Counted from the stretch's first letter, positions 1,001 through 36,884 are shown. The stretch: 64,000 nucleotides of DNA from Mageeibacillus sp. UBA1212 (GCA_002309655.1 DBXM01000016.1:72771-136770), one strand, 5' to 3'. Made by a program: numbers and translations. The notes: generated by a model from the sequence alone, not told the origin.

Positions 1001-1669
1001 CTATTTTGCGGCGTCTGATTCCGGGTCAACTTCCGTGTTCTCTTCCTGGTTTACTTCCGGGTTCTCTTCCGGGTTCTCTTCCTGCCCGGCTTTCGCGGCG
1101 TCCGCAAGAACCTTCCTGTACCCGATAAGGTAGAGAACCAGCGAGACGGCCACCGACAGAATGCACACGCCGATAAGGATGTTCGCGACCGTGCGCGGAA
1201 TCTTCGTGAATATGATAAGCGCCATGATAACGCCCTCCACGACCACCGTGTTGACCTTCCCGTACCACTTCGCGCTCTGCAGCTTGTCCGTCACCAGCTT
1301 CACCTTGAGGCCGGCGAAGAACATTATCGCCTCCCTGATCACGAAAACGACCACCAGCGCGATAATCAGCTTGTACCTCGGAATAAGGCAGATGAGAAGC
1401 GCTCCCTGCGTCAGCTTGTCCGCCACCGGATCGATAAAAATGCCGAATTCCGAGACCTGGTTAAACTTTCTGGCAACCCAGCCGTCGAGAATGTCCGTCA
1501 CCGCCGAGACGGCGATCAGAATGACTGTCACGGGAACGCTTTTCAGCCCCAGATAGGCCCAGATAATGAACGGAATCAGAGCTATCCTGAAAAAGCTCAT
1601 CATGTTCGGGACCGTGAAGACCTTGTCGACGCGTAATTTCTTTTTTTCTTGAGTATCGGGTGATTTCAT
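1001..1669 (-). CDS. pgsA: CDP-diacylglycerol--glycerol-3-phosphate 3-phosphatidyltransferase (CDP-alcohol phosphatidyltransferase family)
   Basis: 222 aa and multi-pass hydrophobic. It carries the CDP-alcohol phosphatidyltransferase motif DILDGWVARKFNQVSEFGIFIDPVADK. A GGAGAG ribosome-binding site sits 6 nt before the ATG. The acidic C-terminal tail (EENPEENPEVNQEENTE) is encoded by tandem 12-mers. Confidence 0.85.
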   Translation of the reverse strand: MKSPDTQEKKKLRVDKVFTVPNMMSFFRIALIPFIIWAYLGLKSVPVTVILIAVSAVTDILDGWVARKFNQVSEFGIFIDPVADKLTQGALLICLIPRYKLIIALVVVFVIREAIMFFAGLKVKLVTDKLQSAKWYGKVNTVVVEGVIMALIIFTKIPRTVANILIGVCILSVAVSLVLYLIGYRKVLADAAKAGQEENPEENPEVNQEENTEVDPESDAAK

Positions 1670-1863
1670 GCCTGACTCTCCTTCTGTTCGACGTGTATTA
1701 TATCACACGCGCACGCTTAAAAAAAGACTTAACAGAGCGAAAACTCGCATAAATTGCAAAAAAAAACGCCGCAACGCAGCGCCGTTCACGTTCATGCCGC
1801 ACATCATGTCGCACGTATGTTGCAATCTTGTCGCCCGCTTGTCGCGCCGAGCACTTTTCTCTA

Positions 1864-1892
1864 TTGATTCGCGCGCTCTAAAATGGTACAAT
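1864..1892 (+). promoter_or_regulatory. Sigma-A-type promoter (TTGATT-17-TACAAT) for the sugar-isomerase operon
   Basis: The -35 TTGATT at 1864-1869, a 17-nt spacer and the -10 TACAAT at 1887-1892 sit about 115 nt upstream of the ATG at 2010. Confidence 0.5.
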
Positions 1893-2009
1893 CGTGAATG
1901 AAATAAAGCGCCGTTCGGTTATATTAAAACGCCTCTTTTGAGGGGCGCCGCAGACCCCGGATATTTCCGGGAAAAGCACGCGAAAGACACGGACGGCCGG
2001 GAGGTTATT

Positions 2010-2861
2010 ATGAAACATTTCCACATCGGAGCGATGGCTGACAGCTTCAGGCTTCCTGTTCGCGAAGCGCTTCTGAAGGTTAAAGAAGTCGGAGCCGAGG
2101 GCTTTCAGATCTACGCCGTAAGAGGCGAATTCTCCGCCGAGAATCTCGACAAAAACGCCCGCAGCGAATTCAAAAAGTACGTCGACAGCCTCGGCCTTAA
2201 AATTTCCGCCCTCTGCGGAGATTTCGGACACGGTTATTACGACAGAGATTACAACAAGATCCTCGTCGAGAAATCGAAGAGAGTTCTCGAGCTTGCCGCC
2301 GACCTCGACACACACGTGGTCACGACTCATATCGGCGTCGTTCCCTCCGATCCGTCCCACCCCCGCTACCAGGTGATGCACGACGGCTGCCTGGAGCTCG
2401 CGCGCGCCGCCGACTATATCGGCGTGAAGTTCGCGGTCGAAACAGGTCCCGAGACATCGCTGGTTCTCAAGAACTTCCTCGACGGCCTGAACTCGAAAGG
2501 CGTCAGCGTCAACCTCGACCCGGCCAACCTCGTTATGGTCACCGGCGACGACCCGGTGCAGGCGGTCTACAACCTGCGCGAATACATCGTTCACACCCAC
2601 GCGAAGGACGGCGTTATGCTGAACAGATGCGACCCTGAGATTATTTACGGTTTGAGACCCGCTCCGGAAGGCGGCATTCCCGCCCCGTTCGCGGAGGTTC
2701 CGCTCGGCACCGGCAGCGTCGACTTCCCGAAGTATCTCGCGGCGCTTCACGACATCGGCTTTGACGGTTTTCTCACCATCGAGCGTGAAGTCGGCGAAGA
2801 CCCGGCAAAAGACATCGCGATGGCGGTCAACTTCCTTAAAGATACCGTCGAAGCGCTTTAA
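2010..2861 (+). CDS. Sugar phosphate isomerase/epimerase family protein (xylose-isomerase-like TIM barrel)
   Basis: Begins MKHFHIGAMADSF... with a GGGAGG ribosome-binding site 7 nt upstream. The track ORF starts earlier at 1938 without a ribosome-binding site. The sequence shows the typical AP-endonuclease-2/xylose-isomerase-like TIM-barrel composition, with metal-ligand-like H/D/E positions (HTHAKDG...IERE). Confidence 0.75.
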   Translation: MKHFHIGAMADSFRLPVREALLKVKEVGAEGFQIYAVRGEFSAENLDKNARSEFKKYVDSLGLKISALCGDFGHGYYDRDYNKILVEKSKRVLELAADLDTHVVTTHIGVVPSDPSHPRYQVMHDGCLELARAADYIGVKFAVETGPETSLVLKNFLDGLNSKGVSVNLDPANLVMVTGDDPVQAVYNLREYIVHTHAKDGVMLNRCDPEIIYGLRPAPEGGIPAPFAEVPLGTGSVDFPKYLAALHDIGFDGFLTIEREVGEDPAKDIAMAVNFLKDTVEAL

Positions 2862-2899
2862 ATTTTAGTATTTGAGAGCAAAACAGAAAGGCATCAACC

Positions 2900-3976
2900 A
2901 TGAACAAACTAAAAATCGGTATAGTCGGAAACGGTGGCATCGCCCAGTGCCACGCCGAAAGCTACAAGGCGGTGGCTGACAGAGCGGAAATTTATGCGCT
3001 CTGCGACATCAACTACGAGCGCGCCCTTGCGATGGCGGCAAGGCTCGGAATTCCCGGGGAGCGCGTCTTCAACGACGTTCACGAGATGGTCAAGCTTCCG
3101 GAACTCGACGCCGTCGACGTCTGCACCTGGAACAACGGCCACGCGGAGTGCTCCATCGCCGCCCTTAACGCCGGCAAGCACGTCCTCTGCGAAAAGCCCA
3201 TGGCCATGAACGCGAAACAGGCGGCCGCGATGAAGGAGGCCGCCGACAGAAACGGCAAGCACCTGCAGATCGGCTTCGTGAGACGTTTCGGCAACGACAT
3301 CGAAGTGCTCAAGAACCTCCGCGACGACGGCTTCTTCGGTGACATCTACTACGCGAAGGTCAACTACACGCGCCGCAACGGCTGCCCCGGCGGCTGGTTC
3401 TCCGACAGTTCACGTTCGGGCGGCGGTCCGCTCATCGACCTGGGCGTTCACGTCATCGACTTCTCCAGGTACCTCATGGGCAACCACAAGCCGGTCTCCG
3501 TCTACGGCGCCACGTTCAACATGCTCAAGAACCGGCCCGACATCAGGAAGGCGGGCGGCGGCTATATGTCGAGCGACGCCGCCAACAGCGAGATCTACGA
3601 CGTGGAAGACCTTGCGACGGGAATGATCCGCTTCGACAACGGCTCGGTCATCTCGATTGACGCGGCGTTCTCACTCAACCAGCGCGAAGACCGCGGCGAC
3701 ATGGAATTCTTCGGCACGAAGGGTGGCGCCAAGATCGGCAGCGGCGTCGAGCTGTTCTCTTCTATGAGCGGCTACATGACCAACGTCGAGCTCGCCTTCC
3801 CGACCGGCTTTGACTTCATGAAGTCCTTCAACGAAGAGATTTCCCACTTCATCGACTGCATAACCGTTCCCGGCACGAAGTGCATCGCACCCGCGGAGGA
3901 CGGCATCGCGCTGATGCAGATTCTCGACGGCCTCTACGAGTCGGCTCGCACCGGGCACGAAGTGATTCTGGCTTAA
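2900..3976 (+). CDS. Gfo/Idh/MocA-family NAD(P)-dependent oxidoreductase
   Basis: The N-terminal Rossmann motif IGIVGNGGIAQCHAESY and an EKPMA motif are present, with a C-terminal alpha/beta domain. A ribosome-binding site is present. It lies 38 nt after the upstream TIM-barrel gene. Confidence 0.85.
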   Translation: MNKLKIGIVGNGGIAQCHAESYKAVADRAEIYALCDINYERALAMAARLGIPGERVFNDVHEMVKLPELDAVDVCTWNNGHAECSIAALNAGKHVLCEKPMAMNAKQAAAMKEAADRNGKHLQIGFVRRFGNDIEVLKNLRDDGFFGDIYYAKVNYTRRNGCPGGWFSDSSRSGGGPLIDLGVHVIDFSRYLMGNHKPVSVYGATFNMLKNRPDIRKAGGGYMSSDAANSEIYDVEDLATGMIRFDNGSVISIDAAFSLNQREDRGDMEFFGTKGGAKIGSGVELFSSMSGYMTNVELAFPTGFDFMKSFNEEISHFIDCITVPGTKCIAPAEDGIALMQILDGLYESARTGHEVILA

Positions 3977-4063
3977 TATTCTTTAACCGCTCCGCTTTCC
4001 ACGTGAATGCCGGGGCGGTTTTTGCGTAATTCACGTTCATTTAATTTTATAACGGAGGGTAGA

Positions 4064-4918
4064 ATGAAAACTTCTGTCAACACTTACAGCTTCGCGCGGG
4101 TCCGCAAAAGCGATGGCACGCCCCTCAACGCGGTGGAAATGTGCGACCTTGCGAAAGAACTCGGCTTCGACGCGATCGAATTCGTGGGGCTCGACGTTCC
4201 CGGCAGCTTCAACATGACTCAAATCCAGTTCGCTTATTTTATTAGAGGCTACTGCGCCGCGAAGGGGCTCGGAATTTCCGCCTACACGGTCGGCGCCGAT
4301 TTTCTCGCCCCGGGAACGGTCGAACACTTAAAACGCGAACTCGACGTTGCCTTCGCGCTCGGCGCCCCGCTGATGCGCCACGACATCGCCTACGCCTGTC
4401 CGGAGGGCCGCACCTACTTCGATCTGATTCCCGAATTCGCCGAAAAAGTCACCGAAGTTACCGAATACGCCAAAACGCTCGGCGTCAGAACGTGCACAGA
4501 AAACCACGGCTACTTCTCGCAGGATTCCGACAGAATGACCGCTCTCGTGAAAGCCGTCAACAATCCCAACTTCGGGCTTTTGGTCGACTTCGGCAACTTC
4601 ATGTGCGCCGACCAGATTTCGGTCGAAGCCGTGAAGGAGACTGCTCCCTACGCGATCCACGTTCACGCGAAGGATTTCCACTACGTCCCGAAGGAGGAGT
4701 CTGTTAATCCTCCCGCAGGCTATTTCAACACCCGCGGCGGCAACCACATCTCCGGCTGCGCGCTTGGCGACGGCGTCGTGAACGTCCGCGAATGCGTGAA
4801 TATAATGAAAAAAGCCGGCTACAGCGGCTTCATCACTTTGGAATATGAAGGGCCGTTCGGCGACCCGGTTGAAGAGATCAGGCGCGGGCTCGCATTTTTG
4901 AATAGCTGCATCGCCTGA
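4064..4918 (+). CDS. Sugar phosphate isomerase/epimerase family protein (xylose-isomerase-like TIM barrel), second copy
   Basis: Begins MKTSVNTYSFARV... with a GGAGGG ribosome-binding site. It shows TIM-barrel hallmarks (AIEFVG, HVHAKDF, ITLEYEG). It is the third gene of the operon. Confidence 0.75.
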   Translation: MKTSVNTYSFARVRKSDGTPLNAVEMCDLAKELGFDAIEFVGLDVPGSFNMTQIQFAYFIRGYCAAKGLGISAYTVGADFLAPGTVEHLKRELDVAFALGAPLMRHDIAYACPEGRTYFDLIPEFAEKVTEVTEYAKTLGVRTCTENHGYFSQDSDRMTALVKAVNNPNFGLLVDFGNFMCADQISVEAVKETAPYAIHVHAKDFHYVPKEESVNPPAGYFNTRGGNHISGCALGDGVVNVRECVNIMKKAGYSGFITLEYEGPFGDPVEEIRRGLAFLNSCIA

Positions 4919-4947
4919 CTGTAATTTTAACCTAAATATAGGGAAAC

Positions 4948-4998
4948 GGCGGCGCCGGGCCACTTAGCGTGAACAGCCCGGTGCCGCCTTCCTTTTAT
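4948..4998. terminator. Bidirectional intrinsic terminator between the convergent sugar operon and recN
   Basis: The 13-bp GC-rich stem GGCGGCGCCGGGC / GCCCGGTGCCGCC has one mismatch and is followed by TTCCTTTTAT. Confidence 0.6.
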
Positions 4999-5011
4999 CC
5001 AAAACCAAAGG

Positions 5012-6745
5012 TCACCCTTCTCTTGCCGCCCTCTCGCGCATTCGCGCAATCAGCTCAATCGAATGCGCCCTTGTCACGCCCGTTGCGTCGCCGTCGCCGT
5101 CCAGCAGCCTTCCGACCTCGCGGATCTTGCCCTCCTCATCAAGCGTCTCGGCGTCGGTCCTGACAAAGTTGTCGCCGAACGTCTTGCTGATGAAAATGTT
5201 GTTGTCGCTGATGGCCGCAATCTGGGCCAGGTGCGATACGCAGATGACCTGGTGCGAACGGCTCACGCGCATGAATTTTCCCGCAACCGCGGCCGCTGCG
5301 GCGCCGCTGATTCCCGTGTCAATCTCGTCGAATATGAGGACCGGAATTCTGTCCGCCTCCGCGAGGCAGGACTTCATCGCCAGCATAATTCTCGAAAGCT
5401 CGCCTCCAGAAGCGATCCTCGCCAGCGGTCTCGGCAGTTCGCCGGGGTTGGTGCTGATCATAAACTCCGCGGTGTCGAGTCCGTTCTTGCCGAACTGCGG
5501 CAGTTCCCTGTCGTCGAAATCCAGGCGCGTCTCGAAAACAACCTTCCCCATCTCCATGTCTGCAAGGGCGTTCATTATTCCCGTTTTAAGCTTTTCAGCC
5601 GCCTTTTCTCGAAGCGCGTGCATCCTGAGAGCCGCTTTTTTCATCAGCTTCCTAAGTTCGCTCTGTCTGGCGTTCAGCCTCGCCGCGGTCTCCTCGGAGC
5701 CTTTCAGCTTCTCAAGCCTCTCCTCAGCGTCTTCCGCGAAGCGCTTGATTTCGTCGATCGAGTCGCCGTATTTCCGCTTCAAAGCATAAATCAGGTCGAG
5801 CCGCTCCGCCACGTATCCGGCCTCTTTTTCGTCGACGTTGACGCTGTCGAAGGCGTTCCTGATCATGTCGAGGGCGTCGTCCAGAATATACGAGCACTCC
5901 CTGAGCTTTTCGAGGCATTCCCCGAAGCTCTCCGAATACTTGCCGAGCCGCGTTATGTCCGTGATCGCGTTGTCGAGCATTCCCCTCGCGCCGCCGGCGT
6001 CACCGTACGAATCGCCTCCGCCCGCAATTGCTTCAACCGCTGAAGCCAGCCCTTTCGAAATATTTTCCGCGTTGTCGATTAGTTTCTGCCGCTCCTCAAG
6101 CTGCGTGTCCTCGCCGTCTTTTAAAGAGGCGGTAAAAATCTCGTCGGTCTGAAACATCAGCAAATCGATAAGCTGCGCGCGTTTCTGCGGGTCGCCGCTG
6201 ATCTCCTCAAGTTCGGATTCGTTGCGCCTGTACTCGGAAAGCAGCGCGGAATACACGTCCGAAGCCTCTGCAAGCTCCGGTCCCGCGAACGCGTCAAGAA
6301 GCCCGATATGCGTCGACGGCGAAAGCAGCGAGTGGTTGTCGTGCTGCCCGTGAACGTCCACAAGAAGCTCCCCGAGACGCCTGAGCGTGGAAAGCGTTAC
6401 GATTCTGTCGTTGATCCTGCATGTGCCGCGGCCGCTCAGGTTGCAGCTTCTGAAAAGAATAACGGTGCCGTCCGGTTCGGGTTCGATTCCGATTTCGACA
6501 AGCGTCGGGTCGATGCGCTCCGACTCCTCCTCGGAAAGCGTGAAAACGCCGGTAATCTGGGCCTCCTCGGCGCCCTGCCTGATGCTCTCGCGCGACATTC
6601 GCTCCCCCAAAAGGAAGCAGATCGAGTCGATGATTATCGACTTTCCCGCGCCTGTCTCGCCGGTAAGGCAGTTCATACCGGGGCCGAATCCGATGGTCAG
6701 GAAGTCGATTATAGCTGTGTTTCTGATGGTCAGTGAATCGAGCAT
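5012..6745 (-). CDS. recN: DNA repair protein RecN
   Basis: A Walker A motif GETGAGKSIIIDSICFLLG is present, with a long coiled-coil middle and a C-terminal SMC signature region. The ATG at 6745 has a GGAGG ribosome-binding site. The track ORF carries a 17-aa extension that I rejected. Confidence 0.9.
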   Translation of the reverse strand: MLDSLTIRNTAIIDFLTIGFGPGMNCLTGETGAGKSIIIDSICFLLGERMSRESIRQGAEEAQITGVFTLSEEESERIDPTLVEIGIEPEPDGTVILFRSCNLSGRGTCRINDRIVTLSTLRRLGELLVDVHGQHDNHSLLSPSTHIGLLDAFAGPELAEASDVYSALLSEYRRNESELEEISGDPQKRAQLIDLLMFQTDEIFTASLKDGEDTQLEERQKLIDNAENISKGLASAVEAIAGGGDSYGDAGGARGMLDNAITDITRLGKYSESFGECLEKLRECSYILDDALDMIRNAFDSVNVDEKEAGYVAERLDLIYALKRKYGDSIDEIKRFAEDAEERLEKLKGSEETAARLNARQSELRKLMKKAALRMHALREKAAEKLKTGIMNALADMEMGKVVFETRLDFDDRELPQFGKNGLDTAEFMISTNPGELPRPLARIASGGELSRIMLAMKSCLAEADRIPVLIFDEIDTGISGAAAAAVAGKFMRVSRSHQVICVSHLAQIAAISDNNIFISKTFGDNFVRTDAETLDEEGKIREVGRLLDGDGDATGVTRAHSIELIARMRERAAREG

Positions 6746-6746
6746 G

Positions 6747-7580
6747 TCAGCCTCCGTTTCCGGACTCGCCGAACAGTTTTTCGGCGACCGCCGCATAGAA
6801 GTTCGGTGGATCGATCCTGACGATTTTTACCTTTTTATCGGCACATTCGCACACTACGCGCTCGTCCTCGCGGAGCTTCGCCGAGGTCTGGCCGTCGACG
6901 ATAAGCCGCAGTTTTTTTGCCTTCCCGGCCGGAGTAACCTTCACCGTGCTGTCGTGGTGGGCGACGATCGTTCTGCTTCCCATTTTGTGCGAGCAGATTG
7001 GCGTGACGAGAATGACGTCGTTACCGGGCGCGATGATCGGGCCGCCGGCCGAGAGTGAATAAGCGGTTGAACCGGTCTGAGTCGCAACAATAATACCGTC
7101 GCACGGATAAGTCCCCACGAAAGCGCCGTTGATTTCAACGGAAAGATGGCACACGTTGGCGTCGACCTCCCTGGTCAGCACCGCGTCGTTGACCGCGTAC
7201 CCGAAAAATCTCTTCTGCCCCTCGGAAACCACGTAGGTCGCCAGCACGCTGCGCTCCTCGATCGAATACCTGCCGTCGCAGATGCGCGAAACCGTCTCCT
7301 CAATCGAATCCGGTTCAAACTCGGTCAAGAATCCTATCGTGCCCAGGTTGAAGCCGAACACGGGAATTTCCCTCTCCACGGCGCTCGAAGCCACCCTCAG
7401 GAACGTACCGTCTCCCCCGATCGAAATAATAAGGTCGCAGTCGGCGAAAACGTCGCCGCTCATGCTGTGCTTCCCCGCGGTAACGACTTCGACGCCGTGA
7501 GCCTCGAAAAGCTCCGACAGTCTGAAATAATACGCCGCGGCGTCCTGTTTCTTTTCGTTTACACAGATTCCCACTCTCAT
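6747..7580 (-). CDS. nadK: NAD(+) kinase
   Basis: The GGDGT motif (ISIGGDGTFL), NEFG-like GFNLGTIGFL and a DGIIVATQTGSTAYSLSAGGPI motif are present. The start MRVGICVN at 7580 has a GGAGGACGG ribosome-binding site. The stop lies 1 nt from the recN start, so the two are translationally coupled. Confidence 0.85.
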   Translation of the reverse strand: MRVGICVNEKKQDAAAYYFRLSELFEAHGVEVVTAGKHSMSGDVFADCDLIISIGGDGTFLRVASSAVEREIPVFGFNLGTIGFLTEFEPDSIEETVSRICDGRYSIEERSVLATYVVSEGQKRFFGYAVNDAVLTREVDANVCHLSVEINGAFVGTYPCDGIIVATQTGSTAYSLSAGGPIIAPGNDVILVTPICSHKMGSRTIVAHHDSTVKVTPAGKAKKLRLIVDGQTSAKLREDERVVCECADKKVKIVRIDPPNFYAAVAEKLFGESGNGG

Positions 7581-7807: not shown

Positions 7808-8296
7808 TCAGTAACCGCGTTCCCCGGTCAGCGATTCGTCGTTGACTATCCACGACTCAACAGGTATCGCTCTGTATTCGTCGGCGGTGTCTCTTATATA
7901 GACCGTGCTGATGCCGGCGTTGATGATGAGCCGCTTGCACATCGAGCACGAGCAGGAATTGGCCACGTAGTCGCCGGTTCCCGCCTCGATTCCGGTCAGG
8001 TACATCGAAGCGCCCAGCATGTCTCTTCTGGCGGCAGAAATGATCGCGTTCGCCTCGGCGTGAACGCTTCTGCACAGCTCGTAGCGCTCACCGCGCGGAA
8101 TCTTGAGCTCCTGCCTGATGCACTTCCCGAGGTCACTGCAGTTCTGGCGGCCTCTCGGAGCGCCGACGTAGCCTGTAGATACAACCTCGTCGTTCTTGAC
8201 GATGACGGCGCCGTAATGTCTTCTCAGGCACGTGCCTCTCTTTGCGACGACCTCCGCGAGGTCGAGGTAGTAATTCACTTTATCGCGTCTGTCCAT
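7808..8296 (-). CDS. Deoxycytidylate (dCMP) deaminase, cytidine/deoxycytidylate deaminase zinc-binding family
   Basis: The HAEANAI motif and a C-x-x-C zinc motif (SCSMCKRLIINAG) are present, and the size matches ComEB-type dCMP deaminases. Confidence 0.8.
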   Translation of the reverse strand: MDRRDKVNYYLDLAEVVAKRGTCLRRHYGAVIVKNDEVVSTGYVGAPRGRQNCSDLGKCIRQELKIPRGERYELCRSVHAEANAIISAARRDMLGASMYLTGIEAGTGDYVANSCSCSMCKRLIINAGISTVYIRDTADEYRAIPVESWIVNDESLTGERGY

Positions 8297-8347
8297 AAAA
8301 TCTCCCTGTGAAATTTATTAAAATGTCCTCTTTCAAAAGCACTCAAA

Positions 8348-8824
8348 TCAGCTGTCCGCAAGATTCTTAAACGTAAACTCCGGCTTCCCGCCCGCAAACA
8401 CAATGACCAGATAGTCGCCGCGCGTAATAGTTCCCGGATTCAAAGCCGTAACGCCGAAATAAGTACCGCGCTCCTGGCAGTGGGTATGGCCGAAAAGCGC
8501 GTAGCCGCAGCCCTGCGCGTAAGCTTCTATGCAGATGTCCCTTATCCCGTTCCTGACGCCGTGGCGGTGGCCGTGAGCCAGAAAAAACTTCGCGTTTCCC
8601 GCCGCGGCAATCTGTTCGGAGACGTATTCACCGGACCAGCCGTAGTCGCAATTTCCCAGCACAGCCCTTGTCTCGCATGCGCCGTCGAATATGTAATCGC
8701 GCGCATGAATGAAGTCCCCGATGCCGTCGCCCAGGAACCACACAGCGTCAGGTTTTTCCTTTAAATAGGCTTTTTCGAGGAACAACTCAGAGCCGTGAAT
8801 GTCGGAGACAACAAGAATCTTCAT
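8348..8824 (-). CDS. YfcE/MJ0936-family metallophosphoesterase (phosphodiesterase)
   Basis: The motifs MKILVVSDIHG, GDGIGD, GNCD, AHGHRH and GHTH are characteristic of the MJ0936/Vps29-type calcineurin-like family. Confidence 0.8.
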   Translation of the reverse strand: MKILVVSDIHGSELFLEKAYLKEKPDAVWFLGDGIGDFIHARDYIFDGACETRAVLGNCDYGWSGEYVSEQIAAAGNAKFFLAHGHRHGVRNGIRDICIEAYAQGCGYALFGHTHCQERGTYFGVTALNPGTITRGDYLVIVFAGGKPEFTFKNLADS

Positions 8825-10299
8825 GCCCTGCCGTCAGCCTGGATCTTAAGAAGCTTTCCGTAAGCCTCTTCCCACCTGCCGGTATCCTCGGGCGTGTAGA
8901 TCTCGATCGGGAACGAATTCCTGACGACCTCTCTCGCCTGGTCGATTCCGCTGACCTCGCCGAGAGCGATAAGCTGGCAGCAGAGGTTGCCGATAGCGGT
9001 CGCCTCAACGGGTCCCGCGTAGACGGTGCGGCCGATGGCGTTCGCGGTGAAGCGGCTGAGGATCGTGTTCTTGGTGCCGCCGCCCACGATGTTGAGCGCG
9101 GGAACCGGCTTGCCGATGATCTCCTCGAGACCTTCGATGCACTGCCTGTACTTGAGCGCGAGGCTCTCTTCGACGACGCGGATGATCTCGCCCTTCGTCT
9201 CGGGAACGCGCTGGCCGGTACGGCGGCAGTAGTCGCGAATCTTCTCAGGCATGTTGAACGGATCGAAGAAGTCCGGATGGTCGACGTCGATGACCGCAAT
9301 AAACGGTTCCGCTGCCTCCACGCCCGCGTTCATTTCCGCGTAGGAGATCTTCTCGCCCTTCTTCTCCCAGTCTCTCATGCACTCGTTGTTGATCCAGAGA
9401 CCCATAATGTTCTTGAGCAGCCTGACGTTGTTGCCGTAGCCGCCTTCGTTCGTGTAGTTGAGCTTGCGGACCGTCTCGTTGATCAGCGGCTTGTCGAGCT
9501 CGATGCCGAGCAGCGACCACGTGCCGGAGCTGAGGAACGCCGCGCCCTTTTCGACGTAAGGAACGGACATAACCGCGGAGCCCGTGTCGTGTTCAGCGAC
9601 CGCGATGACCGGGATCTCGCCGACGCCGAGCTCTTCCTGAATCTCCTTGGTGAGGCCGCCTATCTTGGTGCCGGCGGGAATTACCTCAGGCAGGAAGTCG
9701 GAACGGATACCGAGCTTCTTCAGCATGCCGCGCGCCCAGTCTCCCTTGCGCGGGTCGTACATCTGTGAAGTCGACGTGATCGTGTACTCGCAGAACTTTT
9801 TGCCGGTCAGGAAGTAGTTGAAAAGGTCGGGAATGAACAGGAACGTATCCGCCATTTCGAGGACCGGGTCGTTTTCGCACTTCATCGCGAGCAGCTGGTA
9901 GAGCGAGTTGAACTTCTGGAACGCGATTCCCGTCGTTTTGTAGATCTCCTTTGCGGGAACGATCTCGCAGGCGCGCTCGATCATTCCGTCCGTTCTGGCG
10001 TCGCGGTAGTGGACCGGGTTGCCGAGAAGCTTTCCGTTCTTGGAGAGCAGGCCGAAGTCGACGCCCCAGGTGTCGATGCCGATCGACGCGATGTCCCTGT
10101 CGCCGCCGTTGACGGTGTTGACGATTCCCCTCTTCATCTCGTGGAAAAGTCTGGGGAAATCCCACGTGAACGTGCCGTTCATCATAACCGGATCGCTGCC
10201 GAAGCGGTGCGTCTCGCGGAGAACAAGCTTGTTGCCGTCGAATTCGCCGAGGATGGATCTGCCGCTGCTGGCGCCGTAGTCAAATGCCAAAATCTTCAT
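8821..10299 (-). CDS. FGGY-family carbohydrate kinase, rhamnulokinase-like
   Basis: The N-terminus MKILAFDYGASSGRSILGEF matches rhamnulokinase/FGGY kinases. It is 492 aa. A 4-nt ATGA stop/start overlap joins it to the downstream phosphoesterase. Substrate specificity is uncertain. Confidence 0.65.
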   Translation of the reverse strand: MKILAFDYGASSGRSILGEFDGNKLVLRETHRFGSDPVMMNGTFTWDFPRLFHEMKRGIVNTVNGGDRDIASIGIDTWGVDFGLLSKNGKLLGNPVHYRDARTDGMIERACEIVPAKEIYKTTGIAFQKFNSLYQLLAMKCENDPVLEMADTFLFIPDLFNYFLTGKKFCEYTITSTSQMYDPRKGDWARGMLKKLGIRSDFLPEVIPAGTKIGGLTKEIQEELGVGEIPVIAVAEHDTGSAVMSVPYVEKGAAFLSSGTWSLLGIELDKPLINETVRKLNYTNEGGYGNNVRLLKNIMGLWINNECMRDWEKKGEKISYAEMNAGVEAAEPFIAVIDVDHPDFFDPFNMPEKIRDYCRRTGQRVPETKGEIIRVVEESLALKYRQCIEGLEEIIGKPVPALNIVGGGTKNTILSRFTANAIGRTVYAGPVEATAIGNLCCQLIALGEVSGIDQAREVVRNSFPIEIYTPEDTGRWEEAYGKLLKIQADGRA

Positions 10300-18196: not shown

Positions 18197-19030
18197 ATGA
18201 GCCGGAAAACAAACACAAGCTACGTTTCTTCAAAAGATACTGTTCCGCTTATTCCATCCGCGGAGATAACTCAGGCGGCGGTGGAGGCGGGAAAAATGAT
18301 ACTCGCCGCTGACGGCGTTCGCGACAAGCACGTGACCGCCAAGGAAGGCACCGCGAATTTTGTGACCGGCTACGACCTCAAGATCCAAAATTATCTCGAG
18401 GAGCGGCTCGCGCTTATCCTTCCCGGGGCAACATTTCTGGCCGAGGAAGGCGGGGATGACCTCGCAAAGCCCTCAGACGGCTTTACGTTCGTGATCGACC
18501 CGATCGACGGCACCGCCAATTTCATCCGCGGGCTTCGTAACTCGAGCGTGTCGGTCGGTCTCCTCTACGGCGGGAATCCGGTCTTCGGGTGCGTCGTGCT
18601 CCCCTACACCGGCGAGACGTTCACGGCAGAGAAAGGCCGCGGCGCTTTTGTCAACGGAAAGCCGATTAAGGTGTCGGAAAGACGCCTCAAAGACTCGATT
18701 GTTCTGTTTGGAACTTCCCCTTATTATAGGGAAGAACTCGGTGCCGCCACTGTTGAGACGCTTGGCAGTTTTTTTATGAACTGCCAGGACTTGAGGAGAC
18801 TCGGTTCGGCGGCGCAGGACCTTGTGCTGACCGCCTGCGGTAGAGGCGACGCCTTTTTCGAGCTGAGGCTGTCGCCGTGGGATATAGCCGCCGGCGCGCT
18901 GATACTTGAAGAGGCCGGCGGCGTCATTACCGACATCGAAGGCCGGCCGCTTCCGTTCGACAGGAAGACGTCCGTTCTTTGCGGCAACCCGGTCAACCAC
19001 CGGGAAATTCTGGAACTTCTGAATAAGTGA
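18197..19030 (+). CDS. Inositol monophosphatase family protein (SuhB/IMPase-like)
   Basis: The IMPase motifs FVIDPIDGTANFIRG and WDIAAGALILEEAGG are present. It is 277 aa. Confidence 0.85.
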   Translation: MSRKTNTSYVSSKDTVPLIPSAEITQAAVEAGKMILAADGVRDKHVTAKEGTANFVTGYDLKIQNYLEERLALILPGATFLAEEGGDDLAKPSDGFTFVIDPIDGTANFIRGLRNSSVSVGLLYGGNPVFGCVVLPYTGETFTAEKGRGAFVNGKPIKVSERRLKDSIVLFGTSPYYREELGAATVETLGSFFMNCQDLRRLGSAAQDLVLTACGRGDAFFELRLSPWDIAAGALILEEAGGVITDIEGRPLPFDRKTSVLCGNPVNHREILELLNK

Positions 19031-28148: not shown

Positions 28149-30173
28149 ATGACTAAACTCAGCCAGATCAAGCTTAAAATAGGCTGCGCGGATTTCGGCG
28201 GCCTAAACCCACTTCCCGACGTTCGCCCGACTTTCCCGGATCCCGAACGCGACTGGTCCGACCGGAACGTCTCTCTTCTTGACGAAGATGACGGTCTTTT
28301 TACCGACTACGGCGACCACCCCGGCGCCTTCCCGTACCGTCTTCAGGACCTCTACGACAGATCGACGCAGAAAAGATCCGTCGATGCCGTCGTTCTCGAG
28401 AACTCGCGTCTGAAAGCGGTTTTTATACCGTCTCTCGGAGGCAAGCTCTGGTCCCTTTTCGACAAGCGCGCCAAGCGTGAACTTCTTTACCGCAACAGCC
28501 TGATCCGCCCCTGCAACCTCGCCATCAGGAACGCCTGGACTGCCGGCGGCATCGAATGGAATTTCGGCTTCCGCGGCCACAGCCCGCAGACCTGTTCCAC
28601 CGTTCACACCGCCGTAACCGCGCTCTCCGACGGCACACCCGTTCTCCGCTTTTACTGGTTTGAACGTGTCCGCTGCTGCGTCGTCCAGATGGACATCTTC
28701 CTTCCTGAACGCTCCGAGCTGCTTTATGTCCGCACAAGAATCACCAACCCGAACGCGGAAGTCGTTCCCGTCTACTGGTGGTCTAACATCGCCGTTCCCC
28801 AGAACGAAGGCGACCGCGTTATAGTGCCGGCCGACGACGTCTACACCTCGAAAGGTCCCGACATCGCGAAATACCCGATCAGCGACTTCAGAGGTCTCGA
28901 CATGACCTACCCCTTGAACTGCATCATCGCCAAGGACTTTTTCTGGAAAACGCTGGAAAACAAGCCCCGCTACATCGCGCAGGTAGGAAAAGACGGCTAC
29001 GGTCTTCTGGAAACGTCCACTTCCCGCCTCTTGGGCCGCAAGCTGTTTGTCTGGGGCAACTCTAACGGCGGACGCAACTGGATGAACTATCTTACCGCCG
29101 ACAACGAGGACGGCAGCTACGACGAAATTCAGTGCGGTCTCGCCCACACCCAGTACGAATGCATCCCGATGCCTCCCCACACTGTCTGGGAATGGCTCGA
29201 ATCATACGGTTCAATCACCGCCGACCCGGAGAAAACTCATGGCAACTGGAACGACGCCCGCGCCGAAGTGGAACGCTGCCTTACCAGGAAGATTACACCG
29301 CAGAAGATCGAGGAACTTCTCGAAGCGACCCGTCCGATGGCAAAATCGCCAGCCGAAAAGGTCATCATCCGCGGCGACGGCTGGGGTGCCCTCGAACTTC
29401 TCCGCCTTGAAAAAGCCGGAGCCGCGCTTGGCCTTATGTGCCCGCACCTCGATTTCGGTCCCGCTTCTGACGAACAAAGCGCCTGGGTGTCGCTTCTCAC
29501 CGAAGGCACCGTCGGCGAACACGATCCACTCGAGGCCCCTGCCTCATATATGTACCAGATTTCCTGGACCGTAATGCTCGAAAAGGCAATCGACGGCAAA
29601 GACTCAAGCAACTGGTACGCGCACTACCTTCTTGGAACTATCCGCCTCTACGAAGGCCGCATTCAGGAAGCGCGCAGGCTTCTCGACTGGTCCAACATGC
29701 TCGCGCCTAATCCGTGGGCGACTTACTGCCTCGCAGTCCTCTCCGAGAAAACCGGCGACAGAGAAAAAGCCGCCGAATACGCTCTCAACGCATACCGCAG
29801 ACATTCCGGAGGTGGCTCTTCTTCTCTGGCTGCCGAGTGCATCCGGATGCTTCGCAGCGCGAAAAAGAATGAACAGCTCGTCTCGTTCTACCGCTCTCTG
29901 CCGGTATCTCTGAAACGAAGCAGCCGCCTCAAACTCTACTGCGCTTTTGCCGAACTCGATCTCGGCCACATTGAAGCCGCCGAAACGCTTCTCTTCGGCC
30001 CCGACGGAAATACTGTTCTTGTTGTTCCCGACATCCGCGAAGGCGAAGAATCCGTGACACGCCTCTGGTTCCTTATTCAGGAGAAAAAAGGCGTCCCCCG
30101 CGACAGCATCGCGGAGCCCCCACAGAATCTCGACTTCCGCGTCGCCGCCCGCTCCTCCGAGCTCACAGACTGA
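28149..30173 (+). CDS. Large cytoplasmic protein of unknown function (recalled as DUF5107-like; N-terminal beta-rich domain plus C-terminal TPR/alpha-solenoid-like region)
   Basis: It is 674 aa with no signal peptide. The N-terminal region is W/Y-rich (NAWTAGGIEWNFG, YWWSNIAVPQNEGDRVIVP). The C-terminal 250 aa is helical-repeat-like. The DUF5107 label is from memory only. Confidence 0.35.
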   Translation: MTKLSQIKLKIGCADFGGLNPLPDVRPTFPDPERDWSDRNVSLLDEDDGLFTDYGDHPGAFPYRLQDLYDRSTQKRSVDAVVLENSRLKAVFIPSLGGKLWSLFDKRAKRELLYRNSLIRPCNLAIRNAWTAGGIEWNFGFRGHSPQTCSTVHTAVTALSDGTPVLRFYWFERVRCCVVQMDIFLPERSELLYVRTRITNPNAEVVPVYWWSNIAVPQNEGDRVIVPADDVYTSKGPDIAKYPISDFRGLDMTYPLNCIIAKDFFWKTLENKPRYIAQVGKDGYGLLETSTSRLLGRKLFVWGNSNGGRNWMNYLTADNEDGSYDEIQCGLAHTQYECIPMPPHTVWEWLESYGSITADPEKTHGNWNDARAEVERCLTRKITPQKIEELLEATRPMAKSPAEKVIIRGDGWGALELLRLEKAGAALGLMCPHLDFGPASDEQSAWVSLLTEGTVGEHDPLEAPASYMYQISWTVMLEKAIDGKDSSNWYAHYLLGTIRLYEGRIQEARRLLDWSNMLAPNPWATYCLAVLSEKTGDREKAAEYALNAYRRHSGGGSSSLAAECIRMLRSAKKNEQLVSFYRSLPVSLKRSSRLKLYCAFAELDLGHIEAAETLLFGPDGNTVLVVPDIREGEESVTRLWFLIQEKKGVPRDSIAEPPQNLDFRVAARSSELTD

Positions 30174-30185
30174 CTGTCATTCACG

Positions 30186-30228
30186 CCGCCTTTTCCCTGA
30201 TTCCAGCGGAAAAGGCGGCTTTCTTTTT
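30186..30228 (+). terminator. Intrinsic terminator after the DUF5107-like gene
   Basis: GCCGCCTTTTCC...GGAAAAGGCGGC forms a stem followed by TTTCTTTTT. Confidence 0.65.
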
Positions 30229-30411
30229 AACATGGCCGCAACGCGTGCGACATATAATATCTACGAGAAAATCCGCAACAGACAGACAAAATCCGCCGCA
30301 CGAAAACGGACAACTCCCGGCACACATGAAATAGCCGGCGAAGTGTATTCCACTCTCGAATAAGCGGCGGATCAACGTCTCAGACGTATTGTTTATATAT
30401 TAAAATAATTG

Positions 30412-31857
30412 TCAGATTACAGGCTCCTCAACAGCCAGATTGGTTATCTTATAGAACCCGCCTTCTCTCAAAGCGCTTTCCTTTATTGCGAGCTTTACAG
30501 GCTTCTCGCCTTCAAAAACGCCGGCGCAGACTTCGTATTCGCCCTTGGGCAGATCTCTCAGATCAAGATCGACGGTAAACTCCTGTTTTTCTCCCGATTC
30601 AAGCCTCCTCAGGTCGCCCTCAACCGGAATGATCTTTTTAAACCCGTTTCCGCTCACGCACACCTTGATATCGAATTTCCAGTAAGGCCTCGCCCATCCG
30701 CGGTTCTCAAAGCAGAGCGTCAACGCGTTGTGTGCGGTCGCGTAAGCCTTCGAAGGCGCGACAGCGTAAGGTACGAACAGCCAGTACCCCAGTCTGTTCG
30801 CGCAGTATTCCGTCAGATACCTTTCGTTTTTCAGCCAGGAATCCGGATATCCGTGGAATCCCGCAAACGTGGCTTTCGAGTTCTTAAGCGCCTCAATAAT
30901 GGTGAATCCGTCTCTGTAGTAGCAGTCGTAATACGGCCTGACATACGTATAGTGCGCGAATTCGATTACGCTTGGCGCGTATTTCGCCAGCCTCTGAAAC
31001 GCCCACGGCGCACGCATCGTGTCATACCCCATGTCCGTTGCATAGCCGTCGCAGCATATGGAGTCGTCCTGCAGCCCCAGACCGTGGCTCTCGCAGAAGC
31101 GGAGCATATCCTCCACTTCTTCCTGCCCATGCACCATGCGCCCTATAATGTGGTCGTCGTTCGCGACAACGAACTTATCCGGGAAGTATTTGAGGTGCAG
31201 AAGGAAGTGCTTTTTGACTGTCTCAAGCGGGTATATAACTCCGTCGCCTTCGACCGTATGTCCCTCACCCCAGGTTCCGTAAGTGCCGACGTCGATGAGT
31301 TCGACTCTCGGGTCGGAGTTGTATTTTTTGCCGAGTTCGGCCATGAAAAGCTCAAGTCTTTCCAGAAAATACGGATCTCCGTAGTCAGGCTGTATCGAGC
31401 GGCCTTCCGGTCTGTAGCACACGGCGCCCTTTTCGAAAACGTACCTGGGAGTCGCGAATTCCATTGCCGGACTCGATTCGTATGCGCACGCCCTTAAAGA
31501 GAATGTGTATCCGCGTTTCGACCACCTGTCCATGATCTCGTCAAGAAACCCGAAATCATAAACGCCTTCCTCTTTTTCCACGTCCGCCCAGTCAAACCTG
31601 AGATAAAGGTGATTCATCGCCGGAAACGTGTCGATAAAGTCCTCCGATAGATTCCTGTCCCGGTACGCTCCCGCTCTGAAACCGTTGTCGATATAGTGCC
31701 AGAACCACCCCTTATGCGGGTTTTTAAGCACCGTCTTGTCGTCCTCAAGCGGCCTCAGATCGATAAACCCCGCCCTCTCGGGAACGACGTCGAACATTCC
31801 CCGCTCCGTCTGACTCTCCATCGGCCTTGTCTGTTTTCTCTCGTTAATAAAAGCCAT
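30412..31857 (-). CDS. Putative cytoplasmic glycoside hydrolase (GH42-related TIM barrel; recalled as DUF4874/DUF4832-like)
   Basis: It is 481 aa with no signal peptide. Motifs NPHKGWFWHY, TYGTWGEGH and YPDSW are present. Aromatic-rich barrel strands resemble GH42/GH35-clan enzymes. The family assignment is from memory and not certain. Confidence 0.35.
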   Translation of the reverse strand: MAFINERKQTRPMESQTERGMFDVVPERAGFIDLRPLEDDKTVLKNPHKGWFWHYIDNGFRAGAYRDRNLSEDFIDTFPAMNHLYLRFDWADVEKEEGVYDFGFLDEIMDRWSKRGYTFSLRACAYESSPAMEFATPRYVFEKGAVCYRPEGRSIQPDYGDPYFLERLELFMAELGKKYNSDPRVELIDVGTYGTWGEGHTVEGDGVIYPLETVKKHFLLHLKYFPDKFVVANDDHIIGRMVHGQEEVEDMLRFCESHGLGLQDDSICCDGYATDMGYDTMRAPWAFQRLAKYAPSVIEFAHYTYVRPYYDCYYRDGFTIIEALKNSKATFAGFHGYPDSWLKNERYLTEYCANRLGYWLFVPYAVAPSKAYATAHNALTLCFENRGWARPYWKFDIKVCVSGNGFKKIIPVEGDLRRLESGEKQEFTVDLDLRDLPKGEYEVCAGVFEGEKPVKLAIKESALREGGFYKITNLAVEEPVI

Positions 31858-36868: not shown

Positions 36869-36884
36869 CGGCGTCACCGATCCG

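What the first reader, a model, noticed from the sequence alone, without database searches (positions are those of the whole stretch)
1864..4998. TIM-barrel / Gfo-Idh-MocA dehydrogenase / TIM-barrel operon: candidate 3-keto-sugar (C-glycoside or anhydrosugar) catabolic module
Three cotranscribed genes sit behind a TTGATT-17-TACAAT promoter and ahead of a shared terminator: a xylose-isomerase-like TIM barrel, a Gfo/Idh/MocA NAD(P) oxidoreductase, and a second xylose-isomerase-like TIM barrel. This trio is the known signature of pathways that oxidise a sugar at C3 and then act on the 3-keto product with a metal-dependent TIM-barrel enzyme. Examples are gut C-glycoside deglycosidases (DgpA oxidoreductase plus DgpB/C), levoglucosan dehydrogenase LgdA with LgdB isomerase-like enzymes, and 3-ketoglucoside routes. 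No transporter or regulator is adjacent, so the substrate cannot be inferred. In a glycan-degrading gut or rumen Clostridium this is worth testing.
Basis: inference. Interest (0 to 1): 0.5.

Follow-up and report, generated by a model that had tools for sequence, protein, structure and literature searches.

The report
DgpA-like dehydrogenase with two TIM barrels
Three adjacent genes in a rumen-type Clostridia genome encode a sugar 3-dehydrogenase related to the gut enzyme DgpA and two metal-dependent barrel enzymes. They most likely cleave or reshape a sugar through a 3-keto intermediate, but the family is uncharacterised and its substrate cannot be read from the sequence.

Summary
Three + strand genes lie at 2010-2861 (TIM1), 2900-3976 (GFO) and 4064-4918 (TIM2). 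TIM1 and TIM2 are PF01261 barrels and GFO is a Gfo/Idh/MocA oxidoreductase. A promoter-like site precedes them and is conserved in an ortholog. A strong hairpin shared with convergent recN follows them.

GFO's nearest solved relatives are the glycoside 3''-dehydrogenases DgpA1 and DgpA (213 and 209 bits). The next hit scores 110 bits and inositol dehydrogenases score 60-79. Four DgpA sugar-pocket residues are invariant in the family.

TIM2 keeps the three mutationally tested residues of the C-glycoside eliminase DgpC (Y11, H143, E301). TIM1 lacks the histidine. Neither barrel belongs to any characterised eliminase, hydratase, LgdB or IolE family. No DgpB-type small subunit is present, so a C-glycoside enzyme is unlikely.

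The linkage recurs across Clostridia, often with a divergent AraC regulator. It is loose: GFO often stands alone and TIM1-TIM2 pairs occur without it. Surroundings are frequently housekeeping genes.

Best reading (about 0.45): a cytoplasmic oxidise, eliminate, hydrate, reduce module. Main rival: keto-sugar isomerisation or epimerisation. Moderate interest.

The parts
1864..1892 (+). Promoter-like site TTGATT-17-TACAAT with TG extension
   Evidence: Found by the pattern scan. The same architecture, TTGTAA-17-TACAAT with TG, sits at the equivalent position in ortholog L002. Not tested experimentally.
1893..2009 (+). Putative 5' untranslated leader ending in RBS GGGAGG (1999-2004)
   Evidence: Read from the sequence. 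No Rfam family matches 1500-5200 at E<=1.
2010..2861 (+). TIM1: xylose-isomerase-like TIM barrel, 283 aa. Metal-site candidates are E144, D170, H197 and E258. The strand-5 motif is E144-T145-G146, with no histidine.
2900..3976 (+). GFO: Gfo/Idh/MocA NAD(P) oxidoreductase, 358 aa, DgpA-like. K99, R158, D180 and H184 match DgpA K100, R159, D182 and H186.
   Evidence: Pfam. PDB phmmer gives DgpA1 6.5e-62 and DgpA 1.6e-60, with the next hit at 1e-30. 37-38% identity to DgpA/DgpA1, and the pocket residues are invariant in 81 family members.
3985..4023 (+). GC-rich hairpin followed by UUUUU in the GFO-TIM2 gap; a possible internal terminator or attenuator
   Evidence: RNA fold -24.6 kcal/mol, z -2.06, 6 of 200 shuffles as good. 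The pattern scan did not call it. The gap is absent in L082, where GFO and TIM2 abut.
4064..4918 (+). TIM2: xylose-isomerase-like TIM barrel, 284 aa. Metal-site candidates are E146, D175, H201 and E260. Carries Y8, an E146-N147-H148 motif and E262.
   Evidence: PF01261 E 2.9e-32. AF2 model pLDDT 96.2. Invariant residues from alignment A2. Best solved relative is Art22 (profile E 6.5e-29, 22% identity). Residue matches to DgpC/DfgA.
4936..4998 (.). Strong hairpin between convergent TIM2 and recN; a likely bidirectional terminator
   Evidence: RNA fold -41.2 kcal/mol, z -4.71, 0 of 200 shuffles as good, followed by UUCCUUUUAUCC. recN is at 5012-6796 on the minus strand.

Best explanation
The three genes most likely encode a cytoplasmic module that handles a pyranoside through a 3-keto intermediate, following the known oxidise, eliminate, hydrate, reduce scheme.

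Step 1 (inferred from homology): GFO, a DgpA-like NAD enzyme, oxidises the C3 hydroxyl of a glucosyl-type unit.

Step 2 (inferred from conserved residues): TIM2 binds the 3-keto sugar on its divalent metal. H148 removes the C2 proton and the aglycone or leaving group is expelled. The product is 2-hydroxy-3-keto-glycal.

Step 3 (inferred only from linkage and fold): TIM1, a second metal barrel without that histidine, hydrates or rearranges the enone to a 3-keto sugar.

Step 4 (inferred by analogy with DgpA, which uses 3-oxo-glucose as hydride acceptor): GFO reduces the 3-keto sugar back. The net reaction is then a cofactor-neutral 'hydrolysis'.

An O-linked or similarly labile substrate is more likely than a C-glycoside, because the second subunit that known C-glycoside enzymes need is missing. 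The substrate is unknown. The assignment of which barrel does which step is tentative.
For: - GFO's nearest solved relatives are DgpA1 and DgpA at 213 and 209 bits, about twice any other hit (4gqa 110, LGDH 104, inositol dehydrogenases 60-79).
- DgpA sugar-pocket residues K100, R159, D182 and H186 (PMC9939296) are invariant in 81 family members.
- In the NJ tree rooted on DgpA, DgpA1 branches outside the whole GFO family. Linkage to TIM1 and TIM2 is scattered across the tree, which suggests it is ancestral.
- TIM2 residues Y8, E146-x-H148 and E262 align with DgpC Y11, E141-x-H143 and E301, and with DfgA E-I-H. All are invariant in 36 TIM2 homologs. The DgpC residues were validated by mutation. 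H143 is the proposed C2 base, and AtOGE has the same ligand-x-His arrangement (H132, H134).
- Both barrels give confident TIM-barrel models with full E-D-H-E metal sites.
- Published systems use exactly one or two Gfo enzymes plus two PF01261-type or equivalent enzymes for this chemistry.
- In relatives the only recurrent neighbour is an AraC/cupin regulator typical of sugar operons (21 of 138 neighbouring ORFs in 32 loci). Human-gut versions add a GH109-like NAD enzyme.
Against: - TIM2's closest characterised relative, Art22, is deposited as an isomerase and has Tyr in place of H148.
- TIM1's structural neighbours include many epimerases.
- Linkage is loose. 39 of 80 GFO loci have no barrel nearby. 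Of 44 TIM1 loci, only 11 have this GFO adjacent, while 26 have TIM2.
- No transporter or glycosidase co-occurs. Surroundings are often housekeeping genes.
- High sequence conservation (TIM1 family mean column identity 67%) looks more like a core function than a substrate-specialised one.
- The DgpC E141/H143 match rests partly on alignment by eye, because HMMER's own path there is shifted by three residues.
Confidence: 0.45

Rival explanations
1. Keto-sugar or cyclitol interconversion. GFO oxidises a free sugar, glycoside or inositol. One or both barrels epimerise or isomerise the keto intermediate, as YcjR, IolI/IolO or Art22 do. GFO then reduces it, converting one stereoisomer into another without breaking a glycosidic bond.
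For: - TIM2's best characterised relative is the 'isomerase' Art22 (profile E 6.5e-29).
- TIM1 lacks the eliminase histidine.
- The best NCBIfam profiles are IolG for GFO (154 bits) and IolE for both barrels.
- Housekeeping surroundings and high conservation fit a general metabolic conversion.
Against: - All NCBIfam scores are far below cutoffs: 154 against 355 for IolG, and 25-32 against 290 for IolE.
- GFO is much closer to DgpA than to any inositol dehydrogenase (213 against at most 79 bits).
- TIM2 keeps the E-x-H, Tyr and second Glu of the eliminases. Art22, the isomerase, has lost the His.
- No iolB/C/D/J genes lie within 10 kb.
Confidence: 0.25
2. A core or housekeeping role unrelated to nutrient glycosides. 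Examples are repair or recycling of an oxidised sugar metabolite, or a step in making a cell-envelope or compatible-solute sugar. On this reading the three genes are linked only because they share an intermediate.
For: - In this lineage the trio sits between a CDP-alcohol phosphatidyltransferase and recN/NAD kinase with conserved synteny.
- A common human-gut species has TIM1-TIM2 between RNase Y/YmdB and ClpC/McsB.
- An Acutalibacteraceae clade has GFO alone among tRNA-dihydrouridine synthase-like and DtxR/MntR-like genes, both labelled by eye from the printed sequences.
- No transporter is linked.
- Sequence conservation is strong.
Against: - About half of the barrel-linked loci carry a divergent AraC/cupin regulator, the hallmark of inducible sugar catabolism.
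- The genes are absent from many contexts and are shuffled, duplicated or lost (L051, L076), which is unlike essential genes.
- No biosynthetic partner such as a glycosyltransferase, aminotransferase or nucleotidyltransferase recurs.
Confidence: 0.15
3. A C-glycoside deglycosidase system like DgpABC, DfgABE or CarABC, acting on puerarin-type plant C-glucosides.
For: - GFO is a DgpA homolog.
- TIM2 keeps DgpC Y11, H143 and E301. E301 matters specifically for C-glycoside cleavage.
Against: - No DgpB/DfgB/CarC-type small subunit gene lies in or beside the trio. None appears among the 25 most frequent neighbour families, which are all the tool lists, in 32 related loci.
- C-C cleavage is reported to need aglycone contacts supplied partly by that subunit (PMC10628242).
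- TIM2 is 284 aa against 324-337 for DgpC and is only remotely similar to it.
- GFO is 37-38% identical to DgpA and lacks W166.
Confidence: 0.05
4. A levoglucosan or other anhydrosugar pathway of the LgdA/LgdB1/LgdB2/LgdC type.
For: - The enzyme classes and reaction logic are the same (PMC7676230).
- GFO hits the levoglucosan dehydrogenase model at E 9e-41 and LGDH 6a3f at 104 bits.
Against: - The score is 140 bits against a 650-bit cutoff, half the score to DgpA.
- There is no ABC transporter or binding protein and no second Gfo (LgdC), both typical of lgd loci.
- The habitat is anaerobic gut or rumen rather than soil.
- Homology to LgdB1/B2 could not be tested.
Confidence: 0.03

Closest known systems
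DgpA / DgpA1 (glycoside 3''-dehydrogenases of gut strains PUE and W974-1; PDB 7xr9, 9m3d) with DgpB-DgpC
   Same: GFO is a full-length homolog at 37-38% identity and 209-213 bits. It shares the EKP lysine, R159, D182 and H186 of the glucose pocket. TIM2 shares Y11, E141-x-H143 and E299-x-E301 of DgpC.
   Different: The GFO family forms a separate clade and lacks W166; it has W77 and V127 where DgpA has P and Q. No DgpB subunit is present. The barrels are shorter and only remotely related to DgpC. There is a second barrel (TIM1) with no counterpart in DgpABC.
DfgCD-type O-glucosidase of Catenibacillus scindens / Eubacterium cellulosolvens (listed as a two-gene cluster in PMC8398226; that it is a Gfo oxidoreductase plus a TIM barrel is from memory)
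   Same: On that from-memory composition, both pair a Gfo enzyme with a subunit-less PF01261 barrel. Both come from a gut Firmicute and are cytoplasmic.
   Different: DfgCD homologs are reported as scarce in human-gut MAGs, whereas this family is very abundant.
Levoglucosan pathway LgdA/LgdB1/LgdB2/LgdC (Bacillus smithii; PMC7676230)
   Same: The scheme is oxidation at C3, TIM-barrel beta-eliminase, Mn-dependent TIM-barrel hydratase, then reduction. Barrel sizes are similar (about 275-325 aa).
   Different: The Lgd system has two Gfo enzymes and an ABC transporter. GFO scores 140 bits against a 650-bit cutoff for LgdA. The substrate there is an anhydrosugar from an aerobic niche.
Agrobacterium tumefaciens GlycDH / AtOGE (8BVK) / AtHYD (8RO4) / Gfo (PMC10628242)
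Alistipes/Bacteroides AL1-3 / BT2156-2160 alternative glycan-cleavage cluster (bioRxiv 10.1101/2024.03.25.586180)
   Same: Net hydrolysis runs through a 3-keto intermediate with tightly bound, recycled NAD. AL1/BT1 is a TIM-barrel 3-keto-beta-glucoside 1,2-lyase.
Art22 (PDB 8z1i, 9koj; deposited as 'isomerase')
   Same: It is the closest characterised relative of TIM2 (profile E 6.5e-29, TM 0.8, 22% identity). It shares the N-terminal Y-S motif, metal ligands and E-x-E.
   Different: It has E-N-Y instead of E-N-H. I could find no paper on its reaction. Its link to aurantinin, whose major form carries a 3'-keto sugar (PMC8302727), is my recollection and was not checked.
YcjS/YcjR (E. coli 3-keto-D-glucoside route; PDB 6wn6)
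   Same: It pairs a Gfo 3-dehydrogenase with a PF01261 barrel acting on a 3-keto-glycoside.

Membership tests
C-glycoside deglycosidase systems (DgpABC / DfgABE / CarABC) | C3-oxidising enzyme homologous to DgpA (or FAD-type CarA) | tested here: met
   GFO against DgpA1 and DgpA gives 6.5e-62 and 1.6e-60 over the full length. K100, R159, D182 and H186 are conserved. It is a homolog in a separate clade at 37-38% identity, not an ortholog.
C-glycoside deglycosidase systems (DgpABC / DfgABE / CarABC) | Alpha subunit of the DgpC/DfgA/CarB barrel family with catalytic His and aglycone-binding elements | tested here: inconclusive
   TIM2 keeps the equivalents of Y11, E141-x-H143 and E301. Similarity is remote: single-sequence E about 1e-4, and profile E about 1e-9 to 1e-10 with only partial coverage. 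TIM2 is 40-50 residues shorter.
C-glycoside deglycosidase systems (DgpABC / DfgABE / CarABC) | Small beta subunit (DgpB/DfgB/CarC) encoded beside the alpha subunit | tested here: not met
   There is no ORF of that kind between 1669 and 5012. No recurrent small ORF family appears among the neighbours of 32 related loci. The rest of the genome could not be searched.
Levoglucosan pathway (LgdA/B1/B2/C) | LgdA equivalog (NCBIfam NF052479, cutoff 650 bits) | tested here: not met
   139.8 bits, covering only model positions 1-286 of 386.
Levoglucosan pathway (LgdA/B1/B2/C) | Barrels homologous to LgdB1 (eliminase) and LgdB2 (hydratase) | not testable with these tools
   No LgdB sequences, structures or models were reachable. 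No such name appeared in the NCBIfam or PDB outputs.
Levoglucosan pathway (LgdA/B1/B2/C) | Second Gfo enzyme (LgdC) and an ABC transporter in the locus | tested here: not met
   Neither lies within 10 kb. ABC permease domains occur in only 2 of 138 neighbouring ORFs in relatives.
Bacteroides/Alistipes BT2156-2160 / AL1-5 cluster | BT_2158 and BT_2159 family 3-dehydrogenases (cutoffs 750 and 650 bits) | tested here: not met
   40.1 and 44.8 bits.
Bacteroides/Alistipes BT2156-2160 / AL1-5 cluster | DUF1080 lyase/hydratase and secretion signals | tested here: not met
   Only PF01261 and Gfo domains are present. The N-termini MKHFHIGAM, MNKLKIGIV and MKTSVNTYS show no signal peptide by inspection.
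Agrobacterium GlycDH/AtOGE/AtHYD | Barrels specifically related to AtOGE or AtHYD | tested here: inconclusive
myo-Inositol catabolism (IolG/IolE/IolI) | IolG equivalog (TIGR04380, cutoff 355) and IolE equivalog (TIGR04379, cutoff 290) | tested here: not met
   154 bits for GFO; 25.4 and 31.7 bits for TIM1 and TIM2. Solved inositol dehydrogenases score 60-79 bits against 213 for DgpA1.
myo-Inositol catabolism (IolG/IolE/IolI) | Companion genes iolB, iolC, iolD, iolJ and iolA | tested here: not met
   None is among the called genes within 10 kb or among the recurrent neighbours.
YcjQRS 3-keto-glycoside epimerisation route | YcjR-type 4-epimerase barrel | tested here: inconclusive

The most novel reading that the evidence does not exclude
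TIM1, GFO and TIM2 form a self-sufficient, cytoplasmic, cofactor-recycling 'non-hydrolytic glycosidase' of Gram-positive gut and rumen Clostridia. It would be a third, independent enzyme set for the oxidise, eliminate, hydrate, reduce route. TIM2 would be a single-subunit relative of the C-glycoside eliminases. The family would be among the most abundant of its kind in ruminant and human gut metagenomes.
Probability: 0.35. Interest if true: 0.6.

Novelty: new variant of a known kind. Interest (0 to 1): 0.4.

Why it matters
Glycoside cleavage through 3-keto intermediates has only recently been recognised as a widespread alternative to glycoside hydrolases. It acts on drugs and plant glycosides that ordinary glycosidases cannot touch. 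So far it has been worked out mainly in Bacteroides, Agrobacterium, Bacillus smithii and a few C-glycoside-degrading isolates.

The family seen here carries only generic names in the databases. It has thousands of 90%-identity clusters in gut, rumen and digester metagenomes. It would extend the pathway to the dominant uncultured Oscillospirales and Acutalibacteraceae-type Clostridia. It would also supply a compact three-protein system for biocatalysis.

If the barrels instead turn out to be isomerases, the finding is an ordinary uncharacterised sugar-conversion module.

Tried and rejected
- **Named families.** I looked for membership in NCBIfam. Nothing reaches a cutoff, which rejects IolG/IolE, LgdA, BT_2158/2159 and UlaE-type assignments.
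- **Gene neighbourhood.** A census of neighbours was meant to reveal the substrate. Only an AraC/cupin regulator recurs, with no transporter or glycosidase, so there is no substrate clue.
- **Source names and cluster members**. Only generic labels appear, and all are MAGs.
- **Art22 literature**. No paper describing the Art22 reaction was found.
- **Riboswitch in the leader**. No match.
- **DgpB-like subunit.** None is adjacent. I had no DgpB sequence with which to scan the rest of the window.


Full report
**What is there**

The region holds three co-directional genes. Their starts were refined against homologs. TIM1 runs 2010-2861 (283 aa). GFO runs 2900-3976 (358 aa). TIM2 runs 4064-4918 (284 aa).

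Pfam gives PF01261 (xylose-isomerase-like TIM barrel) for TIM1 and TIM2. It gives the three Gfo/Idh/MocA domains for GFO. Each gene has a Shine-Dalgarno-like sequence.

The promoter-like site TTGATT-17-TACAAT (1864-1892) has a TG extension. An equivalent TTGTAA-17-TACAAT site sits upstream of the 83%-identical ortholog in a yak-rumen Clostridia MAG (L002).

Downstream, a very stable hairpin at 4936-4998 separates TIM2 from convergent recN (-41.2 kcal/mol, z -4.7).

Two refinements apply. First, the 87-nt gap between GFO and TIM2 contains a GC-rich hairpin followed by five U (3985-4023, z -2.06). TIM2 may be partly uncoupled from the first two genes. Second, no Rfam family matches the leader or the gaps.

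The same contig is on record from Logan sample SRR5324825. Near relatives are all uncultured Clostridia from ruminant and other guts.

**The oxidoreductase**

Against all solved structures, GFO hits DgpA1 of strain W974-1 (9m3d, 213 bits) and DgpA of strain PUE (7xr9, 209 bits) over its whole length. The next hit scores 110 bits. Levoglucosan dehydrogenase scores 104, and inositol dehydrogenases score 60-79.

Identity to DgpA and DgpA1 is 37-38%. The glucose-pocket residues shown by structure and mutation in DgpA are K100, R159, D182 and H186 (PMC9939296). Here they correspond to K99, R158, D180 and H184, and they are invariant in 81 family members. W166 is missing and E264 is variable.

No NCBIfam equivalog cutoff is met. 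The scores are IolG 154 of 355, levoglucosan dehydrogenase 140 of 650, and BT_2158/2159 40-45 of 650-750.

That condition is not fulfilled. GFO belongs to a large uncharacterised group whose nearest solved relatives are the DgpA enzymes.

**The two barrels**

Both give confident AlphaFold models (pLDDT 94.6 and 96.2). Both have the full Glu-Asp-His-Glu metal site among their invariant residues. They are homologous to each other at 21% identity.

Neither belongs to a named family.

- **TIM2.** Its best is Art22, deposited as an 'isomerase' (profile E 6.5e-29). Next come the uncharacterised 4ovx, then IolE, DgpC/DfgA, UlaE and AsbF, all near E 1e-8 to 1e-10.

**Residue-level comparison**

This comparison is more informative than the fold searches.

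- TIM2 Y8 aligns with DgpC Y11.
- TIM2 E260 and E262 align with DgpC E299 and E301.
- TIM2 E146-N147-H148 aligns with E-I-H of DfgA in HMMER's own alignment.
- By direct inspection, TIM2 GVRTCTENHGY matches DgpC GVKVGIEVHNP, which puts E146-x-H148 opposite DgpC E141-V-H143. HMMER's path in that weak segment is shifted by three residues, so this last match is partly my reading.

Y11, H143 and E301 are the DgpC residues whose mutation impairs cleavage. H143 is the proposed base that removes the C2 proton. The unrelated O-glycoside eliminase AtOGE has the same ligand-x-His arrangement (H132, H134).

All these TIM2 residues are invariant in 36 homologs. Art22 has Tyr in place of the His. TIM1 has E144-T145-G146 at this place.

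TIM2 therefore carries an eliminase or dehydratase-type active site, and TIM1 does not. From my own knowledge, the same Glu-x-His arrangement serves the enolising dehydratase AsbF. The motif thus points to C-H abstraction next to a ketone rather than to glycosides specifically.

**Linkage in other genomes**

I surveyed 80 genome loci carrying GFO homologs of 48-83% identity.

| Arrangement beside GFO | Loci |
|---|---|
| TIM1 and TIM2 | 15 |
| TIM1 only | 15 |
| Neither | 39 |
| Contig end too close to tell | 11 |

The usual order is TIM1-GFO-TIM2. In an NJ tree rooted on DgpA, DgpA1 branches outside the whole family, and barrel linkage is scattered across the tree. The association therefore looks ancestral and repeatedly lost. 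One Acutalibacteraceae clade has GFO alone among what I read as housekeeping-type genes (my labels, not Pfam-checked).

I also took a TIM1-centred sample of metagenome contigs. Of 44 loci with at least 2.5 kb on both sides, 26 have TIM2 adjacent, 11 have this GFO, 10 have a more distant Gfo (33-36% identity) and 23 have none. This sample is redundant, because about ten loci come from one human-gut species.

The barrels are thus at least as tightly tied to each other as to GFO.

A Pfam census covered 138 neighbouring ORFs in 32 barrel-linked loci. It finds only one recurrent neighbour, a usually divergent AraC/cupin regulator (21 ORFs). There are also a few extra barrels, Gfo genes and GH109-like genes, and almost no transporters.

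In this window's lineage the trio sits between a CDP-alcohol phosphatidyltransferase and recN, NAD kinase and dCMP deaminase, with conserved synteny. In a common human-gut species the TIM1-TIM2 pair lies between RNase Y/YmdB and ClpC/McsB. Context therefore gives no substrate, and it looks more 'core' than a typical inducible sugar locus.

**How it most likely works**

Published systems share one logic. A dehydrogenase makes the 3-keto sugar. A metal enzyme eliminates the substituent at C1 to give 2-hydroxy-3-keto-glycal. A second enzyme hydrates it. A Gfo enzyme reduces 3-keto-glucose to glucose.

This holds for levoglucosan (LgdA/B1/B2/C; PMC7676230). It holds for Agrobacterium GlycDH/AtOGE/AtHYD/Gfo (PMC10628242). 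It holds for Alistipes/Bacteroides AL/BT1-3 (bioRxiv 10.1101/2024.03.25.586180). DgpA itself oxidises puerarin using 3-oxo-glucose as hydride acceptor (bioRxiv 10.1101/816074).

The trio supplies one DgpA-like enzyme, one barrel with an eliminase-type site and one further metal barrel. That is the minimum needed for a cofactor-neutral cycle.

I therefore favour this reading at about 0.45. TIM2 would be the eliminase and TIM1 the hydratase, or an enone-processing enzyme. The substrate would be O-linked or similarly labile rather than a C-glycoside, because the second subunit that known C-glycoside enzymes use is absent.

Every catalytic step here is inferred. Only homology, conserved residues and gene linkage are shown.

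**Rivals**

- **Keto-sugar or cyclitol isomerisation or epimerisation (about 0.25).** It rests on Art22 being an isomerase, on TIM1 lacking the His, on epimerase-rich structural neighbours, and on the weak IolG/IolE profile hits.
- **A core or repair-type role (about 0.15).** It rests on the housekeeping surroundings and the high conservation.
- **C-glycoside cleavage (about 0.05).** It is disfavoured by the failed membership tests listed in the membership section.
- **Levoglucosan catabolism (about 0.03).** It is likewise disfavoured by those tests.

**Comparison and novelty**

The module works like the known 3-keto-glycoside pathways but is a member of none of them.

- The dehydrogenase is a distinct clade related to DgpA.
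- Both barrels are families without a characterised member.
- The composition differs from each described system. It has two subunit-less barrels, one Gfo enzyme, often an AraC regulator, and is cytoplasmic and Gram-positive.

I rate it a new variant of a known kind. All database names for the three families are generic. The families are very abundant in gut and rumen metagenomes.

Interest is moderate at 0.4. A specialist would not be surprised by the chemistry. A biochemical assignment would still annotate thousands of genes in poorly understood gut Clostridia.

Noticed in passing
window 3985-4023: A GC-rich hairpin followed by UUUUU lies inside the operon, between GFO and TIM2. It is a possible internal terminator or attenuator. 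In relative L082 the two genes abut, so the spacer is specific to this lineage.
   Followed up: partly
L002 3440-3560: In the 83%-identical ortholog the GFO-TIM2 gap is 267 nt. It contains two to three tandem copies of a unit of about 44 nt (gatatttgaaac..gatgcctgatccacgcgg).
   Followed up: no
L118, L127, L130, L131, L136 and others (about 4995-6710 in each): A common human-gut species carries a TIM1-TIM2 pair with no Gfo gene within 5 kb. The pair sits between RNase Y, YmdB, a GNAT and an SNF-family transporter on one side and ClpC/McsB on the other.
   Followed up: partly
L005-L032 (GFO at about 8001-9065): In one Acutalibacteraceae clade, GFO homologs of 57-62% identity stand alone. They lie between a 230-aa protein I did not identify and a 177-aa hydrophobic (probably membrane) protein, near tRNA-dihydrouridine synthase-like and DtxR/MntR-like genes. 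None of these labels was checked against Pfam.
   Followed up: partly
L085-L087 9054-10843: Two tandem TIM2-like paralogs (31% and 46% identity) lie without any Gfo gene next to uxaC and a KDPG-type aldolase. This suggests TIM2-family enzymes also serve hexuronate-type routes.
   Followed up: no
L076 2687-6233 and L051 5362-9041: The barrels are amplified locally. L076 has three tandem TIM1 paralogs upstream of GFO. L051 has TIM1-TIM2-TIM1-GFO.
   Followed up: no
L088-L090 (about 11114-12337 in L088): Human-gut versions of the trio are flanked by two AraC/cupin regulators and a convergent GH109-like NAD-dependent enzyme (PF21252). An aldose epimerase and a GH2-like gene lie nearby.
   Followed up: no
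window 28000-52000: G+C drops to 0.50-0.53, against 0.55-0.58 in the flanks, and GC skew is strongly negative (-0.12 to -0.22). The stretch holds large genes with little or no Pfam signal: DUF5702 (34787-36931), a weak CDI-toxin-like hit (33787-34800), 580-aa and 604-aa proteins with no domain, and a 898-930-aa protein with a faint SpaA hit (46837-49629). It may be a surface-protein or accessory region.
   Followed up: no
window 18197-19030, 28149-31857 and 43226-44767: Scattered carbohydrate-related genes lie elsewhere in the window: an inositol-monophosphatase-family gene, DUF5107 and DUF4832/GH42-like genes, and a GH127-like beta-L-arabinofuranosidase. None is linked to the trio.
   Followed up: no
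window 8821-10299 (minus strand): An FGGY-family sugar kinase (492 aa) lies 4 kb downstream of the trio among housekeeping genes. The synteny is conserved in relatives L082 and L083. Its substrate is unknown.
   Followed up: no
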